Source of the DNA: Mobula hypostoma
Taxonomy: Eukaryota
Assembly (NCBI RefSeq): GCF_963921235.1
Contig: NC_086097.1
Location: 10,602,001-10,666,000 of the forward strand
Direction: 5' to 3'
Length of the DNA stretch: 64,000 nt
Positions within the stretch are counted from its first letter, which is position 1, and each line of letters starts with the position of its first letter. The translations under genes and the position numbers were made by a program. The notes beneath the pieces were generated by a model. It was not told the origin of the DNA. It made no database searches and worked only from the letters and a program-made list of their open reading frames with translations. Shown piece by piece: positions 3,391 through 56,825 of this stretch.

Positions 3391-4812
3391 AGAACCATAG
3401 AACCATAGAACACTACGGCACAGAAACAAGCCTTTTGGCCCTTCTTGGCTGTGCCAAACCATTTTTCTGCCTAGTTCCACTGACCTGCACCTGGACCATA
3501 TCCTTCCATACACCTCTCATCCATGTACCTGTCCAAGTTTTTTTTAAATGTTAAAAGTGAGCCCGCATTTACCACTTCATCTGGCAGCTCATTCTACACT
3601 CCCACCACTCTCTGTGTGAAGAAGCCCCCCCCAATGTTCCCTTTAAACTTTTCCCCCCTCACCCTTAACCAATGTCCTCTGGTTTTTTTCTCCCCTTGCC
3701 TCAGTGGAAAAAGCCTACTTGCAATCACTCTATCTAAACCCATCATAATTTTATATACTTCTATCAAATCTCCCCTCATTCTTCTACACTCCTGGGAATA
3801 AAGTCCTAACCTATTCAACCTTCCTCTATAACTCAGTTTCTCAAGTCCTGGCAACATCCTTGTAAACCTTCTCTGCACTCTTTCAACCTTATTAATATCC
3901 TTCCTGTAATTTGGTGACCAAAACTGCAGACAATACTCCAAATTCGGCCTCACCAATGCCTTATACCATAATATTCCAACTCTTATACTCAATACTTTGA
4001 TTTATAAAGGTCAATGTACCGAAAGCTCTCTTTACAACCCTATCTACCTGTGACGCCACTTTTAGGGAATTTTGTATCTGTATTCCCAGATCCCTCTGTT
4101 CTACTGCACTCCTCGGTGCCCTACCATTTACCTTGTATGTTCTACCTTGGTTTGTCCTTCCAAAGTGCAATACCTCACACTTGTCTGTATTAAACTCCAT
4201 CTGCCATTTTTCAGCCCATTTTTCCAGCTGGTCCAAATCCCTCTGCAAGCTTTGAAAACCTTCCTCACTGTCCACTACACCTCCAATCTTTGTATCATCA
4301 GCAAATTTGCTGATCCAACTTACCACATTATCATCCAGATCATTGATATAGGTGACAAATAACAATGAACAGAGCACTGATCTCTGTGGCACACCACCAG
4401 TCACAGGCCTCCACTCAGAGAAGCAATCTTCCACTACCACTCTCTGGCTTCTTCCATTGAGCCAATGTCCAATCCAATTTACTACCTCTCCATGTATACC
4501 TAGCGACTGAATCTTCCTAACTAACCTCCCATGCAGGACCTTGTCGAAGGCCTTACTGAAGTCCATGTAGACAACATCTACTACCTTCCCTTCATCCTCT
4601 TTCCTGGTAACCTCCTCGAAAAACCCTAATAGATTTGTTAAGCATGACCTACCACACGGAAAGCCATGTTAACTCTCCCTAATAAGTCCCTGTCTATCCA
4701 AATACTTGCAGATCCTATCTCTTGGTACTCCTTCCAATAATTTACCTACTACTGACGTCAAATTTACCGGCCTATAATTTCCTGGATTTCTTTTAGAGCC
4801 TTTTTTAAACAA
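3391..4812 (-). mobile_element. 5'-truncated CR1-type LINE (RT fragment, frameshifted)
   Basis: ORFs 3961-4566 (DFSKAFDKV...GVPQ...KFADDTK) and 3594-3992 (LVRPNLEYC.QFWSP); tail (ATAGAACC)n at 3391. Confidence 0.92.
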
Positions 4813-44064: not shown

Positions 44065-44334
44065 TGCCCCACCTCCCCCTCGTATCCCATCCGTTATTTA
44101 TTTTTATACACACATTCTTTCTCTCACTCTCCTTTTTCTCCCTCTGTCCCTCTGACTATACCCCTTGCCCATCCTCTTGGTTTCCCCCCCTCCCCTTTTT
44201 CCTTCTCCCTGGGCCTCCTGTCCCATGATCCTCTCATATCCCTTTTGCCAATCACCTGTCCAGCTCTTGACTCCATCCCTCCCCCTCCTGTCTTCTCCTA
44301 TCATTTTGGATCTCCCCCTCCCCCTCCCACTTTC

Positions 44335-45998
44335 AATGAGATAGAAGAACTGAGCGAAATACATGTTAGTAGGGAAGTGGTGTTAGGTAAATTGAAGGGA
44401 TTAAAGGCAGATAAATCCCCAGGGCCAGATGGTCTGCATCCTAGAGTGCTTAAGAAAGTAGCCCAAGAAATAGTGGATGCATTAGTGATAATTTTTCAAA
44501 ACTCATTAGATTCTGGACTAGTTCCTGAGGATTGGAGGGTGGCTAATGTAACCCCACTTTTTAAAAAAGGAGGGAGAGAGAAACCGGGGAATTATAGACC
44601 GGTTAGCCTGACATCGGTGGTGGGGAAACTGCTGGAGTCAGTTATCAAAGATGTGATAACAGCACATTTGGAAAGCGGTGAAATCATTGGACAAAGTCAG
44701 CATGGATTTGTGAAAGGAAAATCATGTCTGACGAATCTCATAGAATTTTTTGAGGATGTAACTAGTAGAGTGGATAGGGGAGAACCAGTGGATGTGGTAT
44801 ATTTGGATTTTCAAAAGGCTTTTGACAGGGTCCCACACAGGAGATTAGTGTGCAAACTTAAAGCACACGGTATTGAGGGTAAGGTATTGATGTGGATAGA
44901 GAAGTGGTTAGCAGACAGGAAGCAAAGAGTGGGAATAAACGGGACCTTTTCAGAATGGCAGGCAGTGACTAGTGGGGTACCGCAAGGCTCAGCGCTGGAA
45001 CCCCAGTTGTTTACAATATATATTAATGACTTGGATGAGGGAATTAAATGCAGCATCTCCAAGTTTGCGGATGACACGAAGCTGGGCGGCAGTGTTAGCT
45101 GTGAGGAGGATGCTAAGAGGATGCAGGGTGACTTGGATAGGTTGGGTGAGTGGGCAAATTCATGGCAGATGCAATTTAATGTGGATAAATGTGAAGTTAT
45201 CCACTTTGGTGGCAAAAATAGGAAAACAGATTATTATCTGAATGGTGGCCGATTAGGATAAGGGGAGATGCAACGAGACCTGGGTGTCATTATACACCAG
45301 TCATTGAAAGTGGGCATGCAGGTACAGCAGGCGGTGAAAAAGGCGAATGGTATGCTGGCATTTATAGCAAGAGGATTTGAGTACAGGAGCAGGGAGGTAC
45401 TACTGCAGTTGTACAAGGCCTTGGTGAGACCACACCTGGAGTATTGTGTGCAGTTTTGGTCCCCTAATCTGAGGAAAGACATCTTTGCCATAGAGGGAGT
45501 AGAAAGAAGGTTCACCAGATTGATTCCTGGGATGGCAGGACTTTCATATGAAGAAAGACTGGATGAACTAGGCTTGTACTCATTGGAATTTAGAAGATTG
45601 AGGGGGGATCTGATTGAAACGTATAAAATCCTAAAGGGATTGGACAGGCTAGATGCAGGAAGATTGTTCCCGATGTTGGGAAGTCCAGAACGAGGGGTCA
45701 CAGTTTGAGGATAAGGGGGAAGCCTCTTAGGACTGAGATTAGGAAAAACTTCTTCACACGGAGAGTGGTGAATCTATGGAATTCTCTGCCACAGGAAACA
45801 GTTGAGGCCAGTTCATTGGCTATATTTAAGAGGGAGTTAGATGTGTCCCTTGTGGCTAAAGGGATCAGGGGGTATGGAGGGAAGGCTGGTGCAGGGTTCT
45901 GAGTTGGATGATCAGCCATGATCGTAATAAATGGCGGTGCAGGCTTGAAGGGCCGAATGGCCTACTCCTGCACCTATTTTCTATGTTTCTATGTTTCT
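44335..45998 (+). mobile_element. Young 5'-truncated CR1-type LINE with complete RT domain
   Basis: KSPGPDG...NYRPVSL...QHGF...LDFQKAFD...GVPQGS...KFADDTK; one in-frame TAA at 45259-45261; (TTTCTATG)n tail. Confidence 0.95.
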
Positions 45999-46062: not shown

Positions 46063-47500
46063 GTACCTCTTCCTAGAAATGCTGCCTGGCCTGCTGCGTT
46101 CACCAGCAACTTTGATGTGTGGTCCAGTGTATACGTCCTTCTTTTTATCGACCGGAGCTTTCATAAGCAAAGGTTATCTAAATTTGTCAGGCTTACCTTT
46201 CAAAAGGTTCAAAGGTTCTAAGGTTCATTTATGATCAAAGTATGCAACTCTGAAATTCTTCTTCTCCAGATAGTCACAAAACCAAGAAAGAAAAGAACGG
46301 CAGCACGATCATCAACCTCCAATTCCCTCCACAAAAAAAACAAAAATGGAACAGGCACATCAATACCCAAATCTCCTTTCCTCACACACAAAAAAAGAGA
46401 AAAAGTGACAAAAAACACAGAATATAAAAAATCATAAGACTGGAAAAAAGTCTATAGCTCAAGCCCATATCCAAATCACCGATAACGTGAGTAACATTCT
46501 CCAGGAACTGCGGCAGGCCTTTCTCTCTCTGGCAACGAGTGATCTTCGAGTGATAAATGGCAGCCTCCTTCCTCTGTAGCAGAGCGATCCTCCAGTGACA
46601 AAAAGGCAGGCAGAGCGTGCTCAAATTCCAAATTCACCTCAATGTTTCTATCCCCTCCCCCCTTTGCTTTAATTGGCGAACAATGGCGGCTTTAATCATC
46701 AAAATGGAGTCGAACATCAGCTCCCAGCCTTCTCACTGCAAGGTTCCTTATACTGCCTCTGCTTTCCAGAATCATCTCGGAGTTAAGATGGCGCTAAGGC
46801 GGCATTGATGCTGCCTGACTCAGAATCAGAATCAGAATCAGGTTTATTATCACCGGCATGTGACGTGAAATGTGTTAACTTAGTAGCAGTAGTTCCAGGC
46901 AATACATAATCTAGCAGAGAGAGAGAAAAAATAACAATAATAAATAAAATAAAACGTATTAATAAATAAACAAGTAAATCAATTAAGTTTATTGAATAGA
47001 TTATTATCTGATGACACAACAATTGTAGGCCGTATCTCGGGTAATGATGAGTTTGAGTACAGAGAGGAAATTAAGAACCTGGTGGCATGTTGCGAAGACA
47101 ATAACCTATCCTTCAACATCAGCAAGACGAAGGAATTGGTTGTTGACTTCAGAAGGAGTAGCAGACCGCACGACCCAATTTACATCGGTGGTACGCAAGT
47201 GGAACAGGTCAAAAGCTTTAAGTTCCTCGGGGTCAATATCACAAATGATCTGACTTGGTCCAACCGAACAGAGTTCACGGCCAAGAAGGCCCACCAGCGC
47301 CTCTACTTCCTGAGAAAACTAAAGAAATTTGGTCTGTCCCCTAAAACCCTCACTAATTATTATAGATGCACCGTAGAAAGCATTCTTCTCAGGTGCATCA
47401 CAACCTGGTATGGAAGTTGTCCTGTCCAAGACCGAAAGAAGCTTCAGAAGGTCATGAACACGGTGCAGCACATCACACAAACCAATCTTCTGTCCTTGGA

Positions 47501-48344
47501 ACACACATCAAAGTTGCTGGTGAACGCAGCAGGCCAAGCAGCATCTATAGGAAGAGGTGCAGTCGATGTTTCAGGCCAAGACCCTTCGTCAGGACTAACT
47601 GAAGGAAGAGTGAGTAAGGGATTTGAAAGCTGGAGGGGGAGGGGGAGATGCAAAATGATAGGAGAAGACAGGAGGGGGAGGGATAGAGCCGAGAGCTGGA
47701 CAGGTGATAGGCAAAAGGGGATACGAGAGGATCATGGGACAGGAGGTCCGGGAAGAAAGACGGGGGGGGGGTGACCCAGAGGATGGGCAAGAGGTATATT
47801 CAGAGGGACAGAGGGAGAAAAAGGAGAGTGAGAGAAAGAATGTGTGCATAAAAATGAGTAACAGCTGGGGTACGAGGGGGAGGTGGGGCCTAGCGGAAGT
47901 TAGAGAAGTCCGCTAGGCCCCACCTCCCCCGCGTACCCCAGCTGTTACTCATTTTTATGCACACATTCTTTCTCTCACTCTCCTTTTTCTCCCTCTGTCC
48001 CTCTGAATATACCTCTTGCCCATCCTCTGGGTCACCCCCCCCCCCGTCTTTCTTCCCGGACCTCCTGTCCCATGATCCTCTCGTATCCCCTTTTGCCTAT
48101 CACCTGTCCAGCTCTCGGCTCTATCCCTCCCCCTCCTGTCTTCTCCTATCATTTTGCATCTCCCCCTCCCCCTCCAGCTTTCAAATCCCTTACTCACTCT
48201 TCCTTCAGTTAGTCCTGACGAAGGGTCTCGGCCTGAAACGTCGACTGCACCTCTTCCTATAGATGCTGCTTGGCCTGCTGCGTTCACCAGCAACTTTGAT
48301 GTGTGTTGCTTGAATTTCCAGCATCTGCAGAATTCCTGTTGTTT
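47501..48344. mobile_element. Palindromic PLE insertion (arms ~47500-47897 and 47909-48307, 11-nt spacer)
   Basis: Near-perfect inverted repeat; TSD TTCTGTCCTTGGA at 47488-47500 and 48343-48355. Confidence 0.92.
48211..48246 (+). ncRNA. Minimal type-I hammerhead ribozyme in PLE (best copy)
   Basis: Stem I AGTC/GACT, core CTGACGA, stem II AGG/CCT, GAAA, palindromic ACGT stem III, GTC triplet (predicted cleavage after 48242). Confidence 0.8.
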
Positions 48345-49425: not shown

Positions 49426-51886
49426 TTGCATGCATCTTTGGAAACAGCTCTATTTCAATCTTTAATATCTTTATCTTTCCCTTTCATGGTTCTTTTGAAG
49501 ACCCTGACCTGGAATTACACGCAGACTTTGGTTCTTTGCGGGAATAGGACCCGTTCTTGGGGTTTCAGGACCAGCCGTTGTTCAGCACGCCAAGAGATCA
49601 GCCTGAGATGCAGCCTAGTGTTTGGAGGCCTAAGATCTCGGGGCTCTGGAGATAGGCGGATTGAGGGTCGATGTCATGGCAGGAGACTTGTGTGTGGTCA
49701 GGGAGGCCGGAAAATCTTTTGCTGTGGGCCCGAAGACCTGAGATCTTCGCAATCTTTGGGCACAGAGCTCGTAAAAAGCTACAAAATGGACTTTTTAACA
49801 TCATAAACCAGCGGGTTGTTATTTTGTCTCCCACTCGCTGTGAAAATGGGGACACCTCCCTCTCCTTTTTAGGGAGAGAGAGAGAACCTGTAGGTTGCTG
49901 AATGCCAGATGAAATGCGATAGTCTTTGGGGTAACTGCAAGATCTGTGTCTTTGATATTGCTTAGCTCACACTTGTGCTCCGTGGTGGGTGTGCTTTTTT
50001 GGTCAGTGGGGGGAGGGGGTATTGTTGCTCGATGCTGCTTATGCATGGGAGGGGGGAGCCAGGGGAGGGGGAGGGCTTTCGGGTTCTCACGTTTAACTAT
50101 CGTTCATTCTTTGGGGCACTTCTCCATTTTCGTGGATGTTTTGCGAAGAGAAAGCATTTCAGGATGTATATTGTATACATTTCTCTGACATTAAATTGAA
50201 CCTTTGAGTCTGCAGAACACTGAAACACCCAAACAATCACCAAACTGCAAATCACAGTATCCAACAGTTCCAGAATCACATTCAAAATGAAAAACGAACG
50301 TAAAAAGACATAAAAGAAGTGAAATATATGGTTTCATGATCTACCCAGAAGATGTCGACCAAAGGAACATTGTACGAAGTTACCATCTTGACCAGAAAGC
50401 GAAAGACAACACCTATCAGAAACATGCTATCCCTAGACATCTGGAGAGATCTGAGGCCTCTGTTGGTCAGGGTCAACCATGGATATTGCATCCTAACTGT
50501 CTATGTGATACACAAGGCAGGGCAGTATGATATGGAGAGGAAGTCCATGTTGCCTATAATGCAAGCTCCCCCTCTCCAAGCATCTGATAAACCCAAAGGA
50601 ACAGTAGAGACCGATACAGTTTGGCACCCGTAGTGCCGTAGGAGTTGCCAGTCTGCATGAACTCAACATAGGACTGCCTTAGGGATGGACCCCAACTCTG
50701 GATTTTTCCCTTGGGGTTTATTCCCAAAGGCTTTCCGAAAAGGGGGCATAGCTGCAAGGGAGCAGAGGTTTGAGATCAGAGTTTTCTTTCTCCTAGATGA
50801 GCAACCAAACACAGCTGATGAGCCCTATCTGCGTAAAGCAAATAGTTTTAAGGTGCCAGTAACCTGCCTTTGCCCATTCTCTTGTCAATAGAAATGTTTC
50901 CGCTGGGATTAGCAAATAGCCACACTTGAAAGCCAGGTGCTGGACTCGGTTGTCACAGGCTATTTGAGATGCATGCCATTGGGAGTATTCAATAACTAGT
51001 GGAAGCTTATCCCCGTTACCACCCCTTGGCTGTAACAACCTTAAGGAACCATCTAGAGAGATACAGCATGGAAAAAGCAGGACTTTTGGTCCATTGGGTC
51101 CTCACCAAATATTAAATGTCCACTTTCACACCTATCCCACCCTGAGCCATTTTATTCTTCTGCCAAATTCTACCATTCATCTACACACTCTACGATGACC
51201 CTATCAACTGAAATATTTTTAGGAATGGGCGGAATCTCACACAGCCACAAAAAGAATATGAAAACTGTCCACAAGCATTACAAGAGGTCTGCATCTGATT
51301 GTTGGTTGCCATGGTTCTGAGGTAACTTGTCAACTAGCTGCAACATCTCGCCAACCTTAAATCTTCCATCAGCCGTGTTTGTTCCAAAGGCAACAATCCC
51401 AGTCTACCCATTCAAATCTAATTCCACAGTGCTAGCAACAGCCCAAGGAATCTTTTCTGCACCTCTCTCCAATGCGGCCATATTGCTGTGACTGAGTAAT
51501 GTTCAGGATTCAAAAAGAAAAAAATTGCACAAATAGCAAAAGATGAACAAGAAACACAGAATGCAAAAGAGCAAACCACAGAGTCGCTGAATAGTACACA
51601 AATATTCAGTATAGTTCAGTTCAATTTAGCGCTGTGTTGTTTGCTGACGGCAGGCTGCAGCCAGTCCACCCTAGTCAAAATCATACAAAATAGCAATTTT
51701 AAAAAAAAGAGTAATCTGTACTTTCTGAAGGATATCACCTTTGGTTGTGCTGTTCGCTGGTGCTATCTTCTTGAGACTGCATATAACTTTAAACTGGGCC
51801 ATTATCCTCAAGAATCACCCTGAGTGATAATATCTTCTTCACCATTGAGAATGGGGAGAAAGCAGAAGAAATGTGGTTATCATTTC

Positions 51887-52109
51887 TATTGTGTCTGTGG
51901 CCTGGTTACACAACAACGCTGTTAATAAAAACGCTGGAGACGGGAGCTATGTTTCATGGTTCTCTACTGGCAGAAGCCAAACTTGACACACACGTACAGA
52001 TCAAAACATACCTTATAGCACATGCTCAATATGCGCCTAATAGCGCATTCAACGACATGTTACTAAAACATAAAGTAGTCCCTTATTATACTGTAGGCTA
52101 TCCTGTACA
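51887..52109 (-). repeat. 3' LTR (223 bp)
   Basis: Direct repeat of 55877-56093; minus strand starts TGTACA; I count about 25 substitutions and 2 indels between the LTRs. Confidence 0.93.
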
Positions 52110-52130
52110 CTCCTCCCCTTTTATTTTAAT
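52110..52130 (-). other. Polypurine tract
   Basis: Minus strand ATTAAAATAAAAGGGGAGGAG directly before the 3' LTR. Confidence 0.88.
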
Positions 52131-52307
52131 AGTGTATCAACTGTGTTTTTTTACTGGGGCACTATGCTAAACAAAATATGTTTACCCTTAACATACAAAT
52201 GCCTACCATTTGTTTACTTAGTAACTTAATAATATCAAATTATAACAAAGTAACGTAATAATATCAAATTATAAAAAGCTTTTTTTTACTTTTGGTCTAA
52301 GACCCAC

Positions 52308-52375
52308 TTATAACTCAAGTCTCTGGGGGGGGGTGGGGTGGTCTTCTCTACCTCTCCAGGTAACGTCTGTCAATA
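52308..52375 (-). pseudogene. Gypsy pol extreme C-terminus remnant
   Basis: RRYLER*RRPP..QRLEL*, resembling the RRYPxRxRxPPxRLxL end of Mag-like pol. Confidence 0.65.
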
Positions 52376-52476
52376 ATCTTGTTTGTTTTAATACAGATAT
52401 CCATATAAAAGTCATGAAAAGTTGACCTCTGAGCATAGGAGTTAAGAAGATGTGCGCCTCCGACTTGCTAAGAGTT

Positions 52477-52592
52477 CTATGCAGCAGATCGGCTCCACAT
52501 AATGAAGACTCCTCTATGCAGCTGCACTAGATATATACACATCTTTGTGCTGGTGATTCAGCAGGAGTGCTGGGAAGATGCTCAGGAGAAGA
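52477..52592 (-). pseudogene. SUDS3: SUDS3 retrocopy, 3' part (probable 3'UTR continues to ~52390)
   Basis: SSPEHLPSTPAESPAQR then, after a deletion, STKMCIYLVQLHRGVFIMWSRSAA*; human has SSPEHLPATPAESPAQR...[24 protein letters not shown]. Confidence 0.9.
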
Positions 52593-53642
52593 CGAAGAGG
52601 CTGTCACTTTTTGCGGGACACATCATTTTGGGAGTTAAAGAAATACAGGATAAATTGGAGAACAAAGTTGCATCCTATGCTGGTCAACTTGCAAAGAGTT
52701 TGAGCAGTAACTCTGATGTGAGATCCCGCGGGCTCTCTCGGGCTGTGATTCGGGTCTTCAGGGATTGTAAAAATAGTGCAGGATGTCCGTTCTTCGGGTA
52801 GGATCTGAAAGAATGTACAATTTGCTTAGGAGAACTCAACAATCCCATCCTGCTTCCATGTGATCATTTTTACTGTTTAAAATGTATAAAGCGGTGGCTT
52901 GAATCAGGACAGCGGCTCTGCCCACTGTGCCATACTTCTCTAGGTGATGATTATGTACCAGCGGTAACAGAAGAAATAAGTGAAGCTGTAGCAAAATTAG
53001 ACATATTTCACAAAAGGTGTGAAGCATTTTTCATAGCTTCGGTTTCCATGGTCTGCTTCAAAGATGACTTGCCACCAACAAAGAAGTGGTTGGTGATCTG
53101 CTGTTTCTGCTATTTATTCGAAGGGTCTCGGCCCGAAACGTCAACTGTACCTCGTCCTAGAGATGCTGCCTGGCCTGCTGCGTTCACCAGCAACTTTGAT
53201 GTGTGTTGCTTGAATTTCCAGCATCCGCAGAATTCCTGTTGCTTGAGTACTTTACCAGTAATCGTTCACCATTTGATGAAGCGGTTGATTGAAATCCTGT
53301 TGTTCGTCCCATCGTTTTTAAACTGCTGTTAAAGTACAGTTTTGCTGATATTAAGGATCACCTGCAGTGCTATCTGTCTGGCTCAGGAGGGAAAATTCCT
53401 TCAGGTGCACATTCAGCACGTGTGAAAATGCAACAATAGAAACCTTAAAGTTTGTTGCCAGAATTCGCCTCTGTTTGGCTGCTGTTTCCCAACTTCTTTG
53501 TGAAAAAACAAGACACATTGGCTGAGGATTCAAAATATGTACGTGCAAAAGGAACTTTCCTGCAAAGGATTAAGTGTATGATTCTTAACGGAGGAAATGA
53601 TTAGTTTGAGATTTACCTTGTGCGAAAACTGTTCTGATTGAA
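52593..53642 (+). pseudogene. RNF213: RNF213 internal cDNA fragment including the RING finger (52814-52930), antisense to the element
   Basis: LFAGHIILG...NSDVRS...CTICLGELNNPILLPCDHFYCLKCIKRWLESGQRLCPLC...VCFKDDLPP...SPFDEAVD*NPVVR...KLLLKYSF...VARIRLCL...IYLVRKL; contains stops and frameshifts and no visible introns. Confidence 0.88.
53119..53248 (+). mobile_element. Short PLE 3' fragment inserted in the RNF213 segment
   Basis: Matches the PLE terminus (…GAAACGTC…CAGAATTCCTGTTG); hammerhead truncated. Confidence 0.85.
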
Positions 53643-54294
53643 TGGAGACGCTGGTCTTTTCAGAGATTTAAGCTTATTGAGAGTTTGCAGATCTTCCATT
53701 ATCTGTTCATCTGTTAACAAGTAATTTAACTTCACAGGTGCAGGTTTTCTTCTTTTGTCAGTAATTGGAACAGGGTCATTAGGTCTCCTCCTTAGTTTCC
53801 TCGTTGTTATTGACTTTACCTCCATAGAATCTCCTGTGATTTCCATTATTAGCCTCTCATTCTCAATCATCTTTTTCTTTCCTTCTAACTTAATCTTTTT
53901 ATCTTCAAATTCCTTCACTGCTGCTTTCTTCTCTTTAATATAATTCCTTTCCACTTGTTCTGTCTCCAGTTGCAGAAAAAGCTCTGCATTTCGTATTCTT
54001 TCCTTGTATTGTTGATCTAGTTTCTTCATCCCTTTCTGATACTCCTGCAAATACCTTCCTGTAACTGCTGTAGCTTTCTTTTGAGAGATGTCAATTTCTC
54101 CTGGTACATCTGGTCTTTTACTTCCAGGTAGTCTTCATCATCTTGCCTATTGGCAATATCTGTCTCCCTTGCACCTCTGTATCTTCATCCGAGTCTCAGC
54201 CACGGATACTATGTTCATCCTCATCGTCGACGCTGTCTAGCTCCTCCTCGTCATTGTAATAGTCGTCAATGGATGAGAGGAGAGTTGCAGACAT
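53643..54294 (-). pseudogene. SUDS3: SUDS3 retrocopy, 5' part (from ATG at 54294)
   Basis: MSATLLSSIDDYYNDEEELDS...MYQEKL...[51 protein letters not shown]...[13 protein letters not shown]...[11 protein letters not shown]...KRPASP; intronless; TGA at 54196-54198, two 1-nt frameshifts, ~8-codon deletion. Confidence 0.95.
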
Positions 54295-54319
54295 CTTCCA
54301 CACCGAGCTTCCCTCCTTT

Positions 54320-55494
54320 GTTGACACATCTAGTGCCTTGATGGTGTGCCAATCCAACTGGATTTTCCTGAGCCATTCACAATGGTGGTCCTCCATTTTT
54401 CAGGACATAGAGTTTCAGCTGCTGTGTTTTGTCTTTGTAGGTCACTGTCACTTTAATTTTACCTTTGGGATGCACTTTCTGTCCTGTGAAAGTCTTTAGC
54501 CGTAGTTTAGTTCGTTTCAGAGGTATGTGAGAAAACAGTCATTTGTAGTCATGTACAGCTATCACTGTTAAAGCTGAGCCTGTGTCCAACTCCATTTTCA
54601 GTCTCACGCCTGCCACTCGTGGAGTGATCCTTATTACTCTTTGATTATCTGTCTCTTTCATGCTGTGAAGTTGCAGACAAGACAATTCACTTTCATCTCA
54701 GTCATTTTCATCAGAACTGCTTTCTTCCATTTTGTGTGCATTGTTGTATTTTCCTTTCTGGGGTTTCTTGTTTCTCCGTATTTTGTCTGTGCATACTCTG
54801 CCAGTGTGGCCCTGATTGCCGCAATTTCTGCATTCTTTGTCTTTAAACCCACAGTCATCAGGGTCATGTGTTCCCACTATGGTAACATTTCTTTCCTTCA
54901 TTTCTGTTCAGTGACATTTTATTCACAGCATATTCCAGAGATTTTTGTTGTATCTCTGAAGCACCCCGTGCTGCTTTTTCCGTTCATATTGCAATGTTCA
55001 GCGCCTTCGCTAATGTAAGGTCTCTTTCACACACAAGCTTCTTCTGTGTGGTTTCACAGTGCATGCCACACACTAACCTGTCCCTCAATGTGTCCGATAG
55101 ACCAGCTCCAAATTGACAATGTTCTGATCATTTGTGCGATTCAGCACAATATTCAGAAATGCTTTCATTTTTGCTCTGATTCTGTTTGTGAAATTTAAAT
55201 CTTTCAGCAATGACCAGTGGTTTGGGGTTTAAATGCTGTTGGAGAGTGTCTAATATTTGCTTGAACGTTTTGTCAGCTGGCTTTTCAGGGGTTGTTTCTG
55301 TGCAGTAATGTGTTATGGTTCTATGGTTCTGCGTTAACAAGCTCCATAGCAACCCATATGTTTTTGCTCCCGTAATACTGAGTAAGACGCTGGCTTTCTT
55401 TTCATCATTAACACTGTTAGCCTCACAATATAACTCCACTCTCTTAGTCTTCAATGCCACTATCAAATGCTGTAATGATTCTAATCATTGCCAT
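54320..55494 (-). pseudogene. Gypsy gag-protease remnant
   Basis: ATG at 55494; RVELYCEAN...LNPKPLVIAERFKFHK...LRDRLVCG; zinc knuckle CRNCGNQGHTGRVC; protease MELDTGSA near 54575-54595; WLRKIQLDW. A short CR1 tail is inserted near 55294-55333. Confidence 0.9.
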
Positions 55495-55646
55495 CTTTGT
55501 TATGTTAATTTAGCCCAGTTTTCCCCTTGCTTTCTTTTTGACTCACGTGTCCTTTTTGCTAGCGCCACGTGTGGACACCGTCTAGATGCGTGTGTCGCTC
55601 CTTTTTATCTCCCTTCTGGATCAGGCAGACCCTCAGCCCCCGGGGG

Positions 55647-55808
55647 TCAGCGCCGTCTGTGGTCTCACCTGGATGTGCTGCGGCTCCGACTGTGTCTCTT
55701 GGTTTCCCGACGTTCCCAACCCCGGCTGTGCTCCCACTTCCTTTCAGACTCATGGCCTCACTCTGCCTCCTTCTCCCGCTCCTTGGCTCATTCCTTGCGC
55801 TCTTCTTT
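55647..55808 (-). pseudogene. ACIN1: ACIN1 (Acinus) C-terminal coding fragment in the element's 5' leader
   Basis: [50 protein letters not shown]; restoring CpG-decayed Arg codons gives a match to human ...ERAKEREK...EAER...REHSR...[24 protein letters not shown]. Confidence 0.78.
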
Positions 55809-55862
55809 CGAGTGTCGTTATCAATTAAAACACGGCGTTCTGATACAATGTAGGTTCATTAA

Positions 55863-55873
55863 CCTCGTCGCCA
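55863..55873 (-). other. Primer-binding site complementary to the tRNA-Ser(GCU) 3' end
   Basis: Minus strand TGGCGACGAGG, 3 nt after the 5' LTR; vertebrate tRNA-Ser(GCU) ends ...CCUCGUCG-CCA. Confidence 0.85.
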
Positions 55874-55876
55874 ATT

Positions 55877-56093
55877 TGTTGTGTATGTGGCCTGGTTACA
55901 CAACAATGCTGTTAATAAAAACACTGGAGACGGGAGCTAAGTTTCATGGTTCTTTACTGGCAGAAACCGAATTCGACACACACGTAAGATCAATACGTGG
56001 CTAATAGCGCATGCTCAATATGTGCCTAATAGCGTATTCAACGACGAGTTACTAAAACATAGAATATTATTATACTGTAGGCTGCACTGTACA
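55877..56093 (-). repeat. 5' LTR (217 bp)
   Basis: TG...CA termini; direct repeat of 51887-52109. Confidence 0.93.
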
Positions 56094-56280
56094 ATTTCAA
56101 ATAGTTTAGATTTTTTTTGGTCCAATTAAAAAGTAAGTATAAAACCACACGATCATACAAAAATATGATAGAGAAAACAGCTGTTTTTTGTTTGTTAAAT
56201 TGAGGTGAATTTGAGGTAAATCCAAATGGAATAGAAGAGGGAGGAGGGAAATGGAGGCTGGGCTTTGGACTACAGACAAA

Positions 56281-56825
56281 TACACTCAGTGGTCACTTAA
56301 TTAGTTACATCTGTTCACCTGCTCATTAATGCAAATATCTAATCAGTCAATCATGTGGCAGCAACTCAATGCATAAAAGCATGCAAACATGGTCAAAAGA
56401 TTCAGTTGTTGTTCAGACTAAGCCTCAGAATGGGGGAAGAAATATGATCTAAGTGACCTTGATCGTGGAATAATTGTTGGTGCCATATGGTGTGTTTTGA
56501 GTATCTTAGAATCTGCTGATCTCCTGGAATTTTCAAACCCGGCCGTGTCTAGAGTTTACAGAGTATAGTGTGAAAAACAGAAATATAAATTCCAGTGAGT
56601 GGCAGTTCTGTGGGTGAAAATACCTTGTTAATGAGGGACTCCAAAGGAGAATGACAACACTGGTTCAAGCTGACAAGAAGGTGAGATTAACTCAAATAAC
56701 CATGCATTACAACAGTAGTGTGCAGAAGATCATCTCTGAATGTACAATTTGTCAAACCTTGAAGTGAATGAGCCACAGCAGCAGAAGATCGCATCAGGCT
56801 CTTCTCTGTACCCAATGAAGTGTAA
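56281..56825 (+). mobile_element. Tc1-like non-autonomous transposon (N-terminal transposase remnant)
   Basis: Starts TACACTCAGTGG; degenerate DLSDLDRGIIVGA...SILESADLLEF...VSRVYRE...LVQADKK. Confidence 0.8.

What the first reader, a model, noticed from the sequence alone, without database searches (positions are those of the whole stretch)
51887..56093. LTR retrotransposon carrying cDNA pieces of three host genes (ACIN1, SUDS3, RNF213)
Seen, minus-strand order: 5'LTR, PBS, ACIN1 3' end, gag, protease, SUDS3 5' part, antisense RNF213, SUDS3 3' part and UTR, pol C-terminus, PPT, 3'LTR, bounded by an ATTTC TSD. RT, RNase H and most of integrase are replaced by host sequence, but the cis-signals for mobilisation in trans are retained. 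Established: LTR elements can capture mRNA by RT template switching. Inference: this is a serial gene-capturing non-autonomous element, and three unrelated captures in one vertebrate Gypsy element looks unusual.
Basis: partly seen in the sequence, partly recalled or inferred. Interest (0 to 1): 0.95.

Follow-up and report, generated by a model that had tools for sequence, protein, structure and literature searches.

The report
Gene-carrying jumping element, hundreds of copies
This is one decayed copy of a retrovirus-like jumping element that lost its own copying enzymes, picked up pieces of three host genes instead, and still spread to several hundred places in this vertebrate genome with help from intact relatives.

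Summary
Window 51887-56093 (minus strand) is a 4.2-kb LTR element: 217/223-nt LTRs, a 5-bp target duplication (GAAAT), a PBS-like site, a polypurine tract, gag and protease. RT, RNase H and integrase are replaced by a complete intronless SUDS3 coding sequence fused in frame to protease. That sequence is interrupted by 1,040 nt of antisense RNF213 (RING region). The leader holds about 190 nt of the ACIN1 last exon.

It is not a one-off. The SUDS3 cargo gives about 400 first-look candidates in this 3.5-Gb genome and the RNF213 insert about 110-140. The protease/SUDS3 junction matched in 20 of 20 copies examined, and the target duplications differ between loci.

An autonomous Ty3/Gypsy-like relative in the same genome shows exactly what was replaced. 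It also carries the ACIN1 piece. The order of capture is therefore ACIN1, in the autonomous lineage, then SUDS3, then RNF213.

No cargo has a poly(A) tail. One junction has 5-nt microhomology. The RNF213 insert is flanked by a 10-11-nt duplication.

I found no sign of selection on SUDS3. The mechanism class is known: LTR-mediated retroposition, maize Bs1 and crocodilian ERV captures. The scale in a vertebrate is notable, and it probably explains a reported excess of SUDS3 "retrocopies".

The parts
56094..56098 (-). 5' copy of the 5-bp target-site duplication (GAAAT on the minus strand)
   Evidence: Direct reading. It matches 51882-51886.
55877..56093 (-). 5' LTR (217 nt, TG...CA)
   Evidence: The family has 1475 first-look candidates in the genome.
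55863..55873 (-). PBS-like site TGGCGACGAGG, 3 nt after the LTR
   Evidence: It is conserved in other copies. The tRNA partner was not identified.
55623..55809 (-). ACIN1-derived fragment in the leader, in sense orientation: the last ~160 nt of the CDS including the stop, plus ~30 nt of 3'UTR
   Evidence: 86% identity over 188 nt to the ACIN1 last exon at G000:C40 about 16.843 Mb, E=1e-58. It is also in the autonomous copy L055, at 87% over 196 nt.
54700..55494 (-). gag remnant with several stops; CCHC knuckles lie near 54890-54780. Boundaries are approximate.
   Evidence: translation. It aligns to the 349-aa gag-PR open frame of L055. The Pfam Retrotrans_gag match is weak only, E=0.009.
54307..54699 (-). 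Aspartic protease remnant (DTGS at 54586-54575; ...LLGREWL... end). It has an 8-nt private deletion.
53644..54306 (-). SUDS3 cDNA, 5' part: 12 nt of 5'UTR, ATG at 54294-54292, CDS up to ...KRPASP. It is in frame with protease.
   Evidence: PDB SDS3 E=1.9e-28. The same junction is in 20/20 copies. Pfam Sds3 E=1.1e-9 on the L054 open stretch.
52604..53643 (+). RNF213 coding fragment (RING finger and flanks, ~340 codons), antisense to the element
   Evidence: PDB RNF213 E about 1e-26 and 6e-4. It maps to residues 1771-2135 of homolog P0004. It is flanked by the duplicated SUDS3 bases 53653-53644 and 52603-52594.
53120..53245 (.). Private insertion of a fragment of a hyper-abundant repeat inside the RNF213 part, in this copy only
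   Evidence: Other copies have ~33 nt here. It matches unrelated loci. Word depth is enormous in all runs laid.
52370..52603 (-). SUDS3 cDNA, 3' part: ...SSPEHLP..., a private 165-nt deletion at 52551-52540, stop at 52479-52477, and 3'UTR with ATTAAA at 52392-52387
52286..52369 (-). End of pol (last ~26 codons and stop), joined to the SUDS3 3'UTR at the microhomology CAGAC (52369-52365)
   Evidence: Alignment with autonomous L055.
52110..52122 (-). Polypurine tract AAAAGGGGAGGAG
   Evidence: It is conserved in other copies.
51887..52109 (-). 3' LTR (223 nt; terminal CA is TA here)
51882..51886 (-). 3' copy of the target-site duplication (GAAAT)

Best explanation
Window 51887-56093 is a dead, decayed copy of a helper-dependent (non-autonomous) Ty3/Gypsy-like LTR retrotransposon family.

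What the family keeps and lacks. It keeps what is needed in cis (LTRs, PBS, leader, PPT) plus gag and protease. It lacks RT, RNase H and integrase. A complete spliced SUDS3 mRNA copy, from 12 nt of 5'UTR through the 3'UTR with no poly(A), takes their place, fused in frame to the end of protease.

Inferred history:
1. A ~190-nt piece of the ACIN1 last exon entered the leader of the autonomous lineage.
2. SUDS3 mRNA replaced most of pol, probably through RT template switches between co-packaged RNAs.
3. In one SUDS3-carrying source element, a 1-kb internal piece of RNF213 coding sequence entered in antisense, with a 10-11-nt duplication of the SUDS3 insertion point.
4. Both forms were copied in trans by the abundant autonomous relatives to a few hundred insertions, in a burst.
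5. A second 3' junction type and all four junction/insert combinations point to recombination among family RNAs.

What is shown and what is inferred. Shown: the anatomy, the host origin of each piece, the multi-copy family with different TSDs, the autonomous relative, and the order SUDS3 before RNF213. Inferred: RNA-level template switching as the capture mechanism, trans-mobilisation, and the age (tens of millions of years).
For: Identity of the pieces: PDB; Pfam Sds3; ACIN1 gene, 86-87% DNA identity including the stop codon and 3'UTR.

Copy numbers:
- The 2-kb cargo gives 124 matches in the 40 scored candidates, of 2745 candidates.
- A 451-nt SUDS3 query gives 401 candidates, 40/40 scored at 92-94%.
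- A 451-nt RNF213 query gives 139 candidates.
- A 26-nt RNF213 pattern gives 107 hits against 0 for the reversed control.

Same junctions: 20/20 for protease/SUDS3; 15/15 RNF213-bearing copies share both RNF213 junctions and the CAGCATCTCC duplication.

Mobility: 7 of 14 two-LTR copies have perfect 5-bp TSDs, all different, and 3 more match 4/5.

Autonomous relative L055: LTR, leader with ACIN1, gag-PR, RT, RNase H (Pfam RT_RNaseH_2, 1.8e-25), integrase (Integrase_H2C2, 2.3e-16), the same pol end and an LTR. The chimera aligns to it up to the junction and again from the last 26 pol codons. Its RT-IN region has 40/40 scored full-length matches at 88-97%.

Junction features: no poly(A) at any cargo end. 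There is 5-nt microhomology, CAGAC, at the type-A 3' junction.

Burst: the tree is star-like, with terminal branches of 0.034-0.062 and L039 an outlier at 0.155.

Assembly: contigs bridge both LTR/flank junctions with 0 differences.
Against: - The parental SUDS3 and RNF213 loci were not located. Intron loss is therefore inferred from uninterrupted coding sequence, not shown exon by exon. For RNF213 there is one further indirect point: an RNF213-like gene in this genome has 25-53-aa exons just downstream of the captured part.
- Microhomology could be read at only one junction.
- The 10-11-nt duplication around RNF213 looks like a target-site duplication. It would also fit a DNA-level insertion into a genomic source copy.
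- Only one autonomous copy was examined for the ACIN1 piece.
- The copy numbers are first-look candidate counts, not a curated census.
- The tRNA partner of the PBS was not identified.
Confidence: 0.85

Rival explanations
1. The host pieces are independent LINE-mediated processed-pseudogene insertions into one resident Gypsy copy, and are not part of a mobile unit.
For: The RNF213 piece is flanked by a 10-11-nt direct duplication of the recipient, a length typical of LINE-type target duplications. LINE-type RT ORFs are common nearby.
Against: No cargo has a poly(A) tail or a LINE tail. RNF213 is an internal coding fragment without the mRNA 3' end. SUDS3 replaces pol rather than being inserted into it. 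The whole chimera recurs with the same junctions at loci with different TSDs.
Confidence: 0.04
2. Capture happened at the DNA level. Repair or recombination joined a SUDS3 retrocopy, and later an RNF213 cDNA or gene fragment, into a genomic Gypsy copy. That copy stayed transcribed and then served as the source for trans-mobilised copies.
For: The end product is the same as for RNA-level capture. Antisense orientation and a flanking duplication are easy to get from filler-DNA capture at a staggered break. The ACIN1 piece lies within one exon, so nothing says it came from RNA.
Against: The SUDS3 cargo begins 12 nt upstream of the ATG, ends inside the 3'UTR and precisely replaces pol between protease and the last 26 pol codons. 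This is the pattern described for template-switch chimeras (Tan et al. 2016, abstract and section 6 read). The type-A junction uses 5-nt microhomology and regains 16 nt of pol, which needs exchange with an autonomous template.
Confidence: 0.12
3. The chimera is an assembly artefact, or the copies are segmental duplications rather than transpositions.
For: The region is repeat-rich, and one autonomous copy has a 97% identical partial duplicate nearby.
Against: Copies lie on many contigs with different flanks and different 5-bp TSDs. Short-read contigs bridge both LTR/flank junctions of this copy with no difference. Runs from two other coded organisms hold contigs at least 93% like the SUDS3 and RNF213 parts.
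Confidence: 0.01

Closest known systems
LTR-mediated retroposition (chimeric retrocopies flanked by LTR-element sequence; Tan et al. 2016, Genome Res, PMC5131818; abstract and section 6 read)
   Same: Host mRNA copy lies inside an LTR element. There is no poly(A) and no LINE-type TSD. Microsimilarity occurs at a fusion point. More than one parental gene sits in one chimera; that paper reports a mouse locus with four genes.
   Different: The animal cases in the parts of that paper I read (abstract and section 6) are described as single loci. Here the chimera kept its cis signals and was itself amplified to a few hundred copies, with sub-lineages that record the order of captures.
Maize Bs1 LTR retroelement with three transduced host gene segments (as summarised in Genome Biol 2026, PMC13317346; passages read)
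   Same: One LTR element has pieces of three unrelated host genes, acquired in separate events.
   Different: Bs1 is a plant element carrying gene fragments only. Here a complete coding sequence (SUDS3) is carried in a vertebrate. One of the three pieces is in the leader of the autonomous lineage and one is antisense and nested in another.
Host mRNA capture by crocodilian endogenous retroviruses (KIT-ligand, nectin3; Chong et al. 2014, PMC4299795; passages read)
   Same: A vertebrate LTR retroelement carries a full host coding sequence at the expense of one of its own genes, and the capture is present in several insertions.
   Different: Those are ERVs with env or an extra ORF replaced, six insertions are reported for nectin3, and purifying selection on the captured ORF is reported. 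Here it is a Gypsy-like element, pol is replaced, there are hundreds of copies, and I saw no sign of selection on the cargo.
Replication-defective transducing retroviruses and other helper-dependent LTR elements (textbook knowledge, recalled)
   Same: Loss of pol functions, retention of cis signals, and dependence on an intact relative for copying.
   Different: The element here is germ-line and intragenomic. The cargo is a corepressor subunit with no evidence of benefit to the element.

Membership tests
LTR retrotransposon | Two direct LTRs with TG...CA ends | tested here: met
   LTRs of 217 and 223 nt, 192/223 identical. Both start TG. The 5' LTR ends CA and the 3' LTR ends TA in this copy; other copies end CA.
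LTR retrotransposon | Short target-site duplication that differs between insertions | tested here: met
   GAAAT here. 7 of 14 copies have perfect 5-bp TSDs, all different, and 3 of 14 match 4/5.
LTR retrotransposon | PBS complementary to a tRNA 3' end next to the 5' LTR | tested here: inconclusive
   TGGCGACGAGG lies 3 nt after the LTR and is conserved in copies. No tRNA was found to compare it with; the ARAGORN script gave no predictions. A match to a serine tRNA is only recalled.
LTR retrotransposon | Polypurine tract abutting the 3' LTR | tested here: met
   AAAAGGGGAGGAG at 52122-52110, conserved in copies.
Ty3/Gypsy (Metaviridae-like) | pol order PR-RT-RNase H-IN in the autonomous form | tested here: met
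   L055 has a DTGS protease, then the RT start, RT_RNaseH_2 (1.8e-25) and Integrase_H2C2 (2.3e-16), in that order.
Ty3/Gypsy (Metaviridae-like) | RT groups with Ty3/Gypsy in a phylogeny | not tested
   No reference RT set was at hand. Linking those two Pfam domains to this superfamily rests on recall.
LTR-mediated retroposition / transduction of host mRNA | Cargo is an intronless copy of a multi-exon host gene | tested here: inconclusive
   A complete uninterrupted SUDS3 CDS is open for 349-389 aa in two copies, and ~340 uninterrupted RNF213 codons are present. An RNF213-like gene in the genome has 25-53-aa exons nearby. The parental loci themselves were not found.
LTR-mediated retroposition / transduction of host mRNA | No poly(A) or LINE-type hallmarks at the cargo borders | tested here: met
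   No A-run at any junction. Exception: a 10-11-nt duplication flanks RNF213.
LTR-mediated retroposition / transduction of host mRNA | Microsimilarity at switch points | tested here: inconclusive
   CAGAC is shared at the type-A 3' junction. The other junctions need the parental sequences.
Non-autonomous (helper-dependent) element | Lacks RT/RNase H/IN but keeps cis signals, and an autonomous relative with like LTR, leader and gag exists | tested here: met
   The chimera aligns to L055 over el.fa (the element with 100-nt flanks, minus-strand order) positions 103-1887 and 3825-4309 only. The RT-IN region of L055 has 40/40 scored full-length matches at 88-97%.
Non-autonomous (helper-dependent) element | Mobilisation in trans demonstrated | not testable with these tools
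   Inferred from many copies with TSDs and the absence of RT/IN.

The most novel reading that the evidence does not exclude
The SUDS3 cargo was not a passive passenger. The in-frame Gag-protease-SDS3 product, a subunit of the Sin3/HDAC corepressor, would have interfered with host silencing of the family and helped it reach hundreds of copies.

A second, more likely novel consequence concerns retrocopy censuses. The excess of SUDS3 (and perhaps other) "retrocopies" reported for cartilaginous fishes would then be TE hitch-hiking, not the expression-driven formation and selective retention that the preprint proposes. The probability below is for the first, functional reading.
Probability: 0.06. 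Interest if true: 0.85.

Novelty: new member of a known kind. Interest (0 to 1): 0.55.

Why it matters
It is a clean, datable natural record of how an LTR element picks up host genes one after another and still spreads. Intermediate forms are preserved, and there is evidence of recombination between sub-lineages.

It also has a practical consequence. A 2026 preprint (10.64898/2026.06.26.734816, passages read) lists SUDS3 among the five top parents of retrocopies in cartilaginous fishes, and reads such lists as expression-driven formation followed by selective filtering. Here about 400 SUDS3 copies are cargo of one transposon family. If this genome belongs to that group (I could not check the taxon), such censuses count transposon bursts as independent gene retropositions.

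Hundreds of in-frame SDS3 and RING-finger fragments are also raw material for new exons and antisense transcripts.

Tried and rejected
- Parental RNF213. Pfam RZ-finger hits gave three loci. 9.6 kb upstream of one (L063) holds RNF213-like exons but none of the captured part. A 26-nt pattern search listed element copies only, with nothing near the RZ loci among the 100 of 107 rows shown.
- Parental SUDS3. A last-exon/3'UTR query gave 40/40 full-length element matches at 90-94%, with no outlier that could be the gene.
- The search for homologous proteins with 'longer' found nothing, because only proteins up to 2000 aa were searched.
- The representative library gave only distant RNF213-like proteins at 34-46% identity.
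- Translating the ACIN1 frame for a protein search failed on stop codons. I used DNA comparison instead.
- Pfam did not call Sds3 on the window's own 145-aa piece but did on a longer open stretch of L054.
- Selection on SUDS3. Pooled pN/pS among 21 copies (210 pairs, 651 nt) is 0.55 in frame, against 0.56 and 0.71 in the two wrong frames. There is no signal.
- Tree. It is star-like and does not separate the RNF213+ and RNF213- forms or junction types A and B.
- Expression. No RNA holder is listed. Contigs of a run guessed to be RNA lie on the LTR, gag, protease and the 3' end, but it may be DNA.
- Empty site. No joint skipping the element is among the 15 of 198 joints shown. A contig of coded organism B covers the 3' flank and 29 nt of the LTR, which is under the tool's 31-nt rule for bridging.
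- The ARAGORN script gave no tRNA predictions.
- The search of earlier findings gave nothing that bears on this.
- Prior description. Searches found no paper describing this family. The supplements of the bioRxiv preprint could not be read, and they may list these SUDS3 copies.

Full report
**Anatomy of the window copy**

Read on the minus strand, 56093-51887 is a 4,207-nt LTR element.
- The LTRs are 217 nt (56093-55877) and 223 nt (52109-51887). Ungapped segments are 92% and 85% identical; overall identity is 192/223 with gaps.
- GAAAT flanks both ends.
- TGGCGACGAGG lies 3 nt after the 5' LTR, and AAAAGGGGAGGAG abuts the 3' LTR.
- Between them, in order:
  - a leader;
  - a gag remnant with CCHC knuckles;
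  - a protease remnant (DTGS);
  - SUDS3 from 12 nt before its ATG (54294-54292);
  - an antisense block;
  - the rest of SUDS3 with its stop (52479-52477) and 3'UTR;
  - the last ~26 codons of pol.
- This copy is dead. It has many stops and three private lesions. An 8-nt deletion lies in protease. A 165-nt deletion in SUDS3 lies where the same 11-nt stretch occurs twice in fuller copies. A ~125-nt fragment of a hyper-abundant repeat lies at 53120-53245.

**Identity of the three host pieces**

- SUDS3. Window 53618-54053 (-) matches mouse SDS3 at E=1.9e-28. In two other copies the frame stays open for 349 and 389 aa, from the end of protease through the whole SDS3 sequence, and Pfam Sds3 is called at E=1.1e-9.
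- RNF213. On the + strand, 52802-53140 matches the RNF213 RING finger and what follows (E about 1e-26). 52541-52798 matches the residues just before it, with homology starting at about 52601. Against distant RNF213-like proteins the insert covers about 365 residues.
- ACIN1. The Pfam RSB motif has a single hit in the genome. Its neighbouring exon reads as the Acinus RSB region. The last coding exon lies 3 kb downstream, and its tail (...[21 protein letters not shown], then the stop) is 86% identical over 188 nt to window 55809-55623 (E=1e-58), running ~30 nt past the stop codon. The fragment lies within one exon, so it carries no splice information.

**It is a family**

- Copy numbers:
  - The LTR has 1475 first-look candidates, with 40 of 40 scored at 89-91%, and the leader has 610.
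  - The 2-kb cargo gave 124 matching pieces in the 40 scored of 2745 candidates.
  - Equal-length 451-nt queries gave 401 candidates for SUDS3 and 139 for RNF213.
  - A 26-nt RNF213 pattern with up to 2 mismatches hit 107 places, against 0 for the reversed control.
  - These are candidate counts, not a curated census.
- Junctions. I fetched 20 copies: 15 chosen because they matched the whole cargo and 5 because they skipped the RNF213 part. All 20 share the protease/SUDS3 junction. All 15 RNF213-bearing copies share both RNF213 junctions.
- TSDs. Of the 14 copies (window included) in which both LTR ends could be placed:
  - 7 have perfect 5-bp TSDs, all different (GAAAT, ACCAC, GGAAG, AGACC, CTGAC, TAAAC, AGTGC).
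  - 3 match 4 of 5.
  - 4 could not be read because the 5' LTR start is truncated or was not found.
- Tree. A tree of 21 copies plus the autonomous relative is star-like. Terminal branches are 0.034-0.062 (one at 0.155) and internal branches are at most 0.025. This is a burst from near-identical sources.

**The autonomous relative and what was replaced**

- Source of the relative. Among 11 loci found with the leader, 8 run on into SUDS3, 2 are truncated earlier, and 1 diverges exactly at the junction.
- Anatomy of L055. Extended, that locus shows LTR, leader, a 349-aa gag-protease open frame, the RT start, a nested LINE-type RT, RNase H, integrase, the same pol end, a PPT and an LTR.
- What was replaced. 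The chimera aligns to L055 up to the junction and again from the last 26 pol codons. The cargo therefore stands where RT, RNase H and integrase should be.
- Abundance. The RT-integrase part of L055 has 40 of 40 scored full-length matches at 88-97%, so potential helpers are abundant.
- ACIN1. L055 carries the ACIN1 piece too, at 87% over 196 nt. That capture therefore predates the SUDS3 capture and belongs to the autonomous lineage. This rests on one autonomous copy.

**Order and mechanism**

- Order:
  - In SUDS3-only copies the sequence reads ...CCAGCATCTCC(G/A)TCTTCTCC...
  - In RNF213-bearing copies the insert sits at that point, with CAGCATCTCC present on both sides.
  - SUDS3 therefore came first and RNF213 second, in a single event.
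- Poly(A). No junction has an A-run. RNF213 is an internal coding fragment, so a LINE-type retroposition does not fit.
- Antisense orientation. It could arise if plus-strand DNA synthesis switched onto a co-packaged RNF213 mRNA, or if a cDNA was captured at the DNA level. I cannot tell which.
- The 3' junction comes in two forms.
  - Type B keeps ~210 nt more of 3'UTR and joins pol at AGAGAAGACC.
  - Type A, the window's form, joins earlier at the 5-nt overlap CAGAC and contains 16 nt of pol that type B lacks.
  - Type A therefore needs an exchange with an autonomous template.
  - Type B is common: 39 other full-length matches among the 40 scored, of 338 candidates.
- Combinations. All four combinations of RNF213 +/- and type A/B occur among the copies examined. 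This fits recombination between co-packaged RNAs. Loss of the insert through its flanking repeats is an alternative.

**Function**

- The SUDS3 ATG is in frame with protease. 16 of 21 copies have a stop-free stretch of at least 110 aa across the junction. The source element could therefore have made a Gag-protease-SDS3 fusion.
- I see no evidence that this mattered. pN/pS among copies is 0.55 in frame, against 0.56 and 0.71 out of frame. The RNF213 insertion, which breaks the SUDS3 frame, did not stop that sub-lineage from reaching more than 100 copies.

**Support from reads**

- In one coded organism (possibly the assembly's source), contigs span 51615-52044 and 56005-56340 with no difference. 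They cross both LTR/flank junctions.
- Two further coded organisms hold contigs at least 93% like the SUDS3 and RNF213 parts.
- Six more organisms share 6-20% of the sampled words.
- The family is therefore probably shared by related species.

**Comparison with the literature**

- LTR-mediated retroposition with microsimilarity at fusion points is described for fly, mosquito, zebrafish, chicken and mammals, including chimeras of several genes (Tan et al. 2016; abstract and section 6 read).
- Crocodilian ERVs captured KIT-ligand and nectin3 mRNAs (Chong et al. 2014; passages read).
- Maize Bs1 holds segments of three host genes (review PMC13317346; passages read).
- The kind is therefore known.
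- Six literature searches found no description of a vertebrate Gypsy-type family that carries a complete host coding sequence and amplified to hundreds of copies with preserved intermediate forms.
- A 2026 preprint names SUDS3 among the five top retrocopy parents in cartilaginous fishes without, in the passages I read, linking it to an LTR element. Its supplements could not be opened.

**Verdict**

This is a new, well-resolved member of a known kind. It is of moderate to good interest, mainly for its scale and for what it implies for retrocopy counts.

Noticed in passing
window 53120-53245: A ~125-nt fragment of a hyper-abundant repeat is inserted in this copy only. Summed word depth here is in the millions in three DNA runs, and the fragment matches unrelated loci at 76-81%.
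   Followed up: partly
window 56174-56693: The 5' flank of the element is itself a very high-copy repeat, with word depth of 10^5-10^6 in the DNA runs.
   Followed up: no
L055:3029-5221: A 731-aa open frame with non-LTR (LINE-type) reverse-transcriptase motifs, by eye, is nested inside the RT of the autonomous Gypsy-like copy.
   Followed up: no
window 3961-4665 (-), 44065-45258 (+), 46953-47771 (+): Other retroelement ORFs lie in the window: two RVT_1 matches (4e-19, 1.7e-33) and an ORF with the ALKBH8_N Pfam domain (1.7e-12). This coarse ORF scan found no host exon.
   Followed up: partly
L038 (G000:C50:105073800-105079300, minus-oriented): A variant copy in which a ~310-nt piece of the RNF213/SUDS3 region is duplicated directly after the PBS, replacing the leader.
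   Followed up: no
SUDS3 cargo, e.g. window about 53880 and L053/L054: The three copies whose translation I read (the window copy, L053, L054) lack 8 residues that mouse SDS3 has after ...FEDKKV/IE. This may be an isoform or a species feature of the parental gene.
   Followed up: no
G000:C67:54931522-54932638: A stretch 97% identical to the RT-integrase region of L055 lies 320 kb away on the same contig. It looks like a segmental duplicate rather than a separate old insertion.
   Followed up: no
window 52438 to 53042: A family variant joins these two points, skipping 603 nt with AGA between them. It appears in contigs of coded organism B and in a run of organism A guessed to be RNA.
   Followed up: no
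G000:C1:10761082-10761107: Another RNF213-bearing copy lies about 105 kb from this one on the same contig, outside the window.
   Followed up: no
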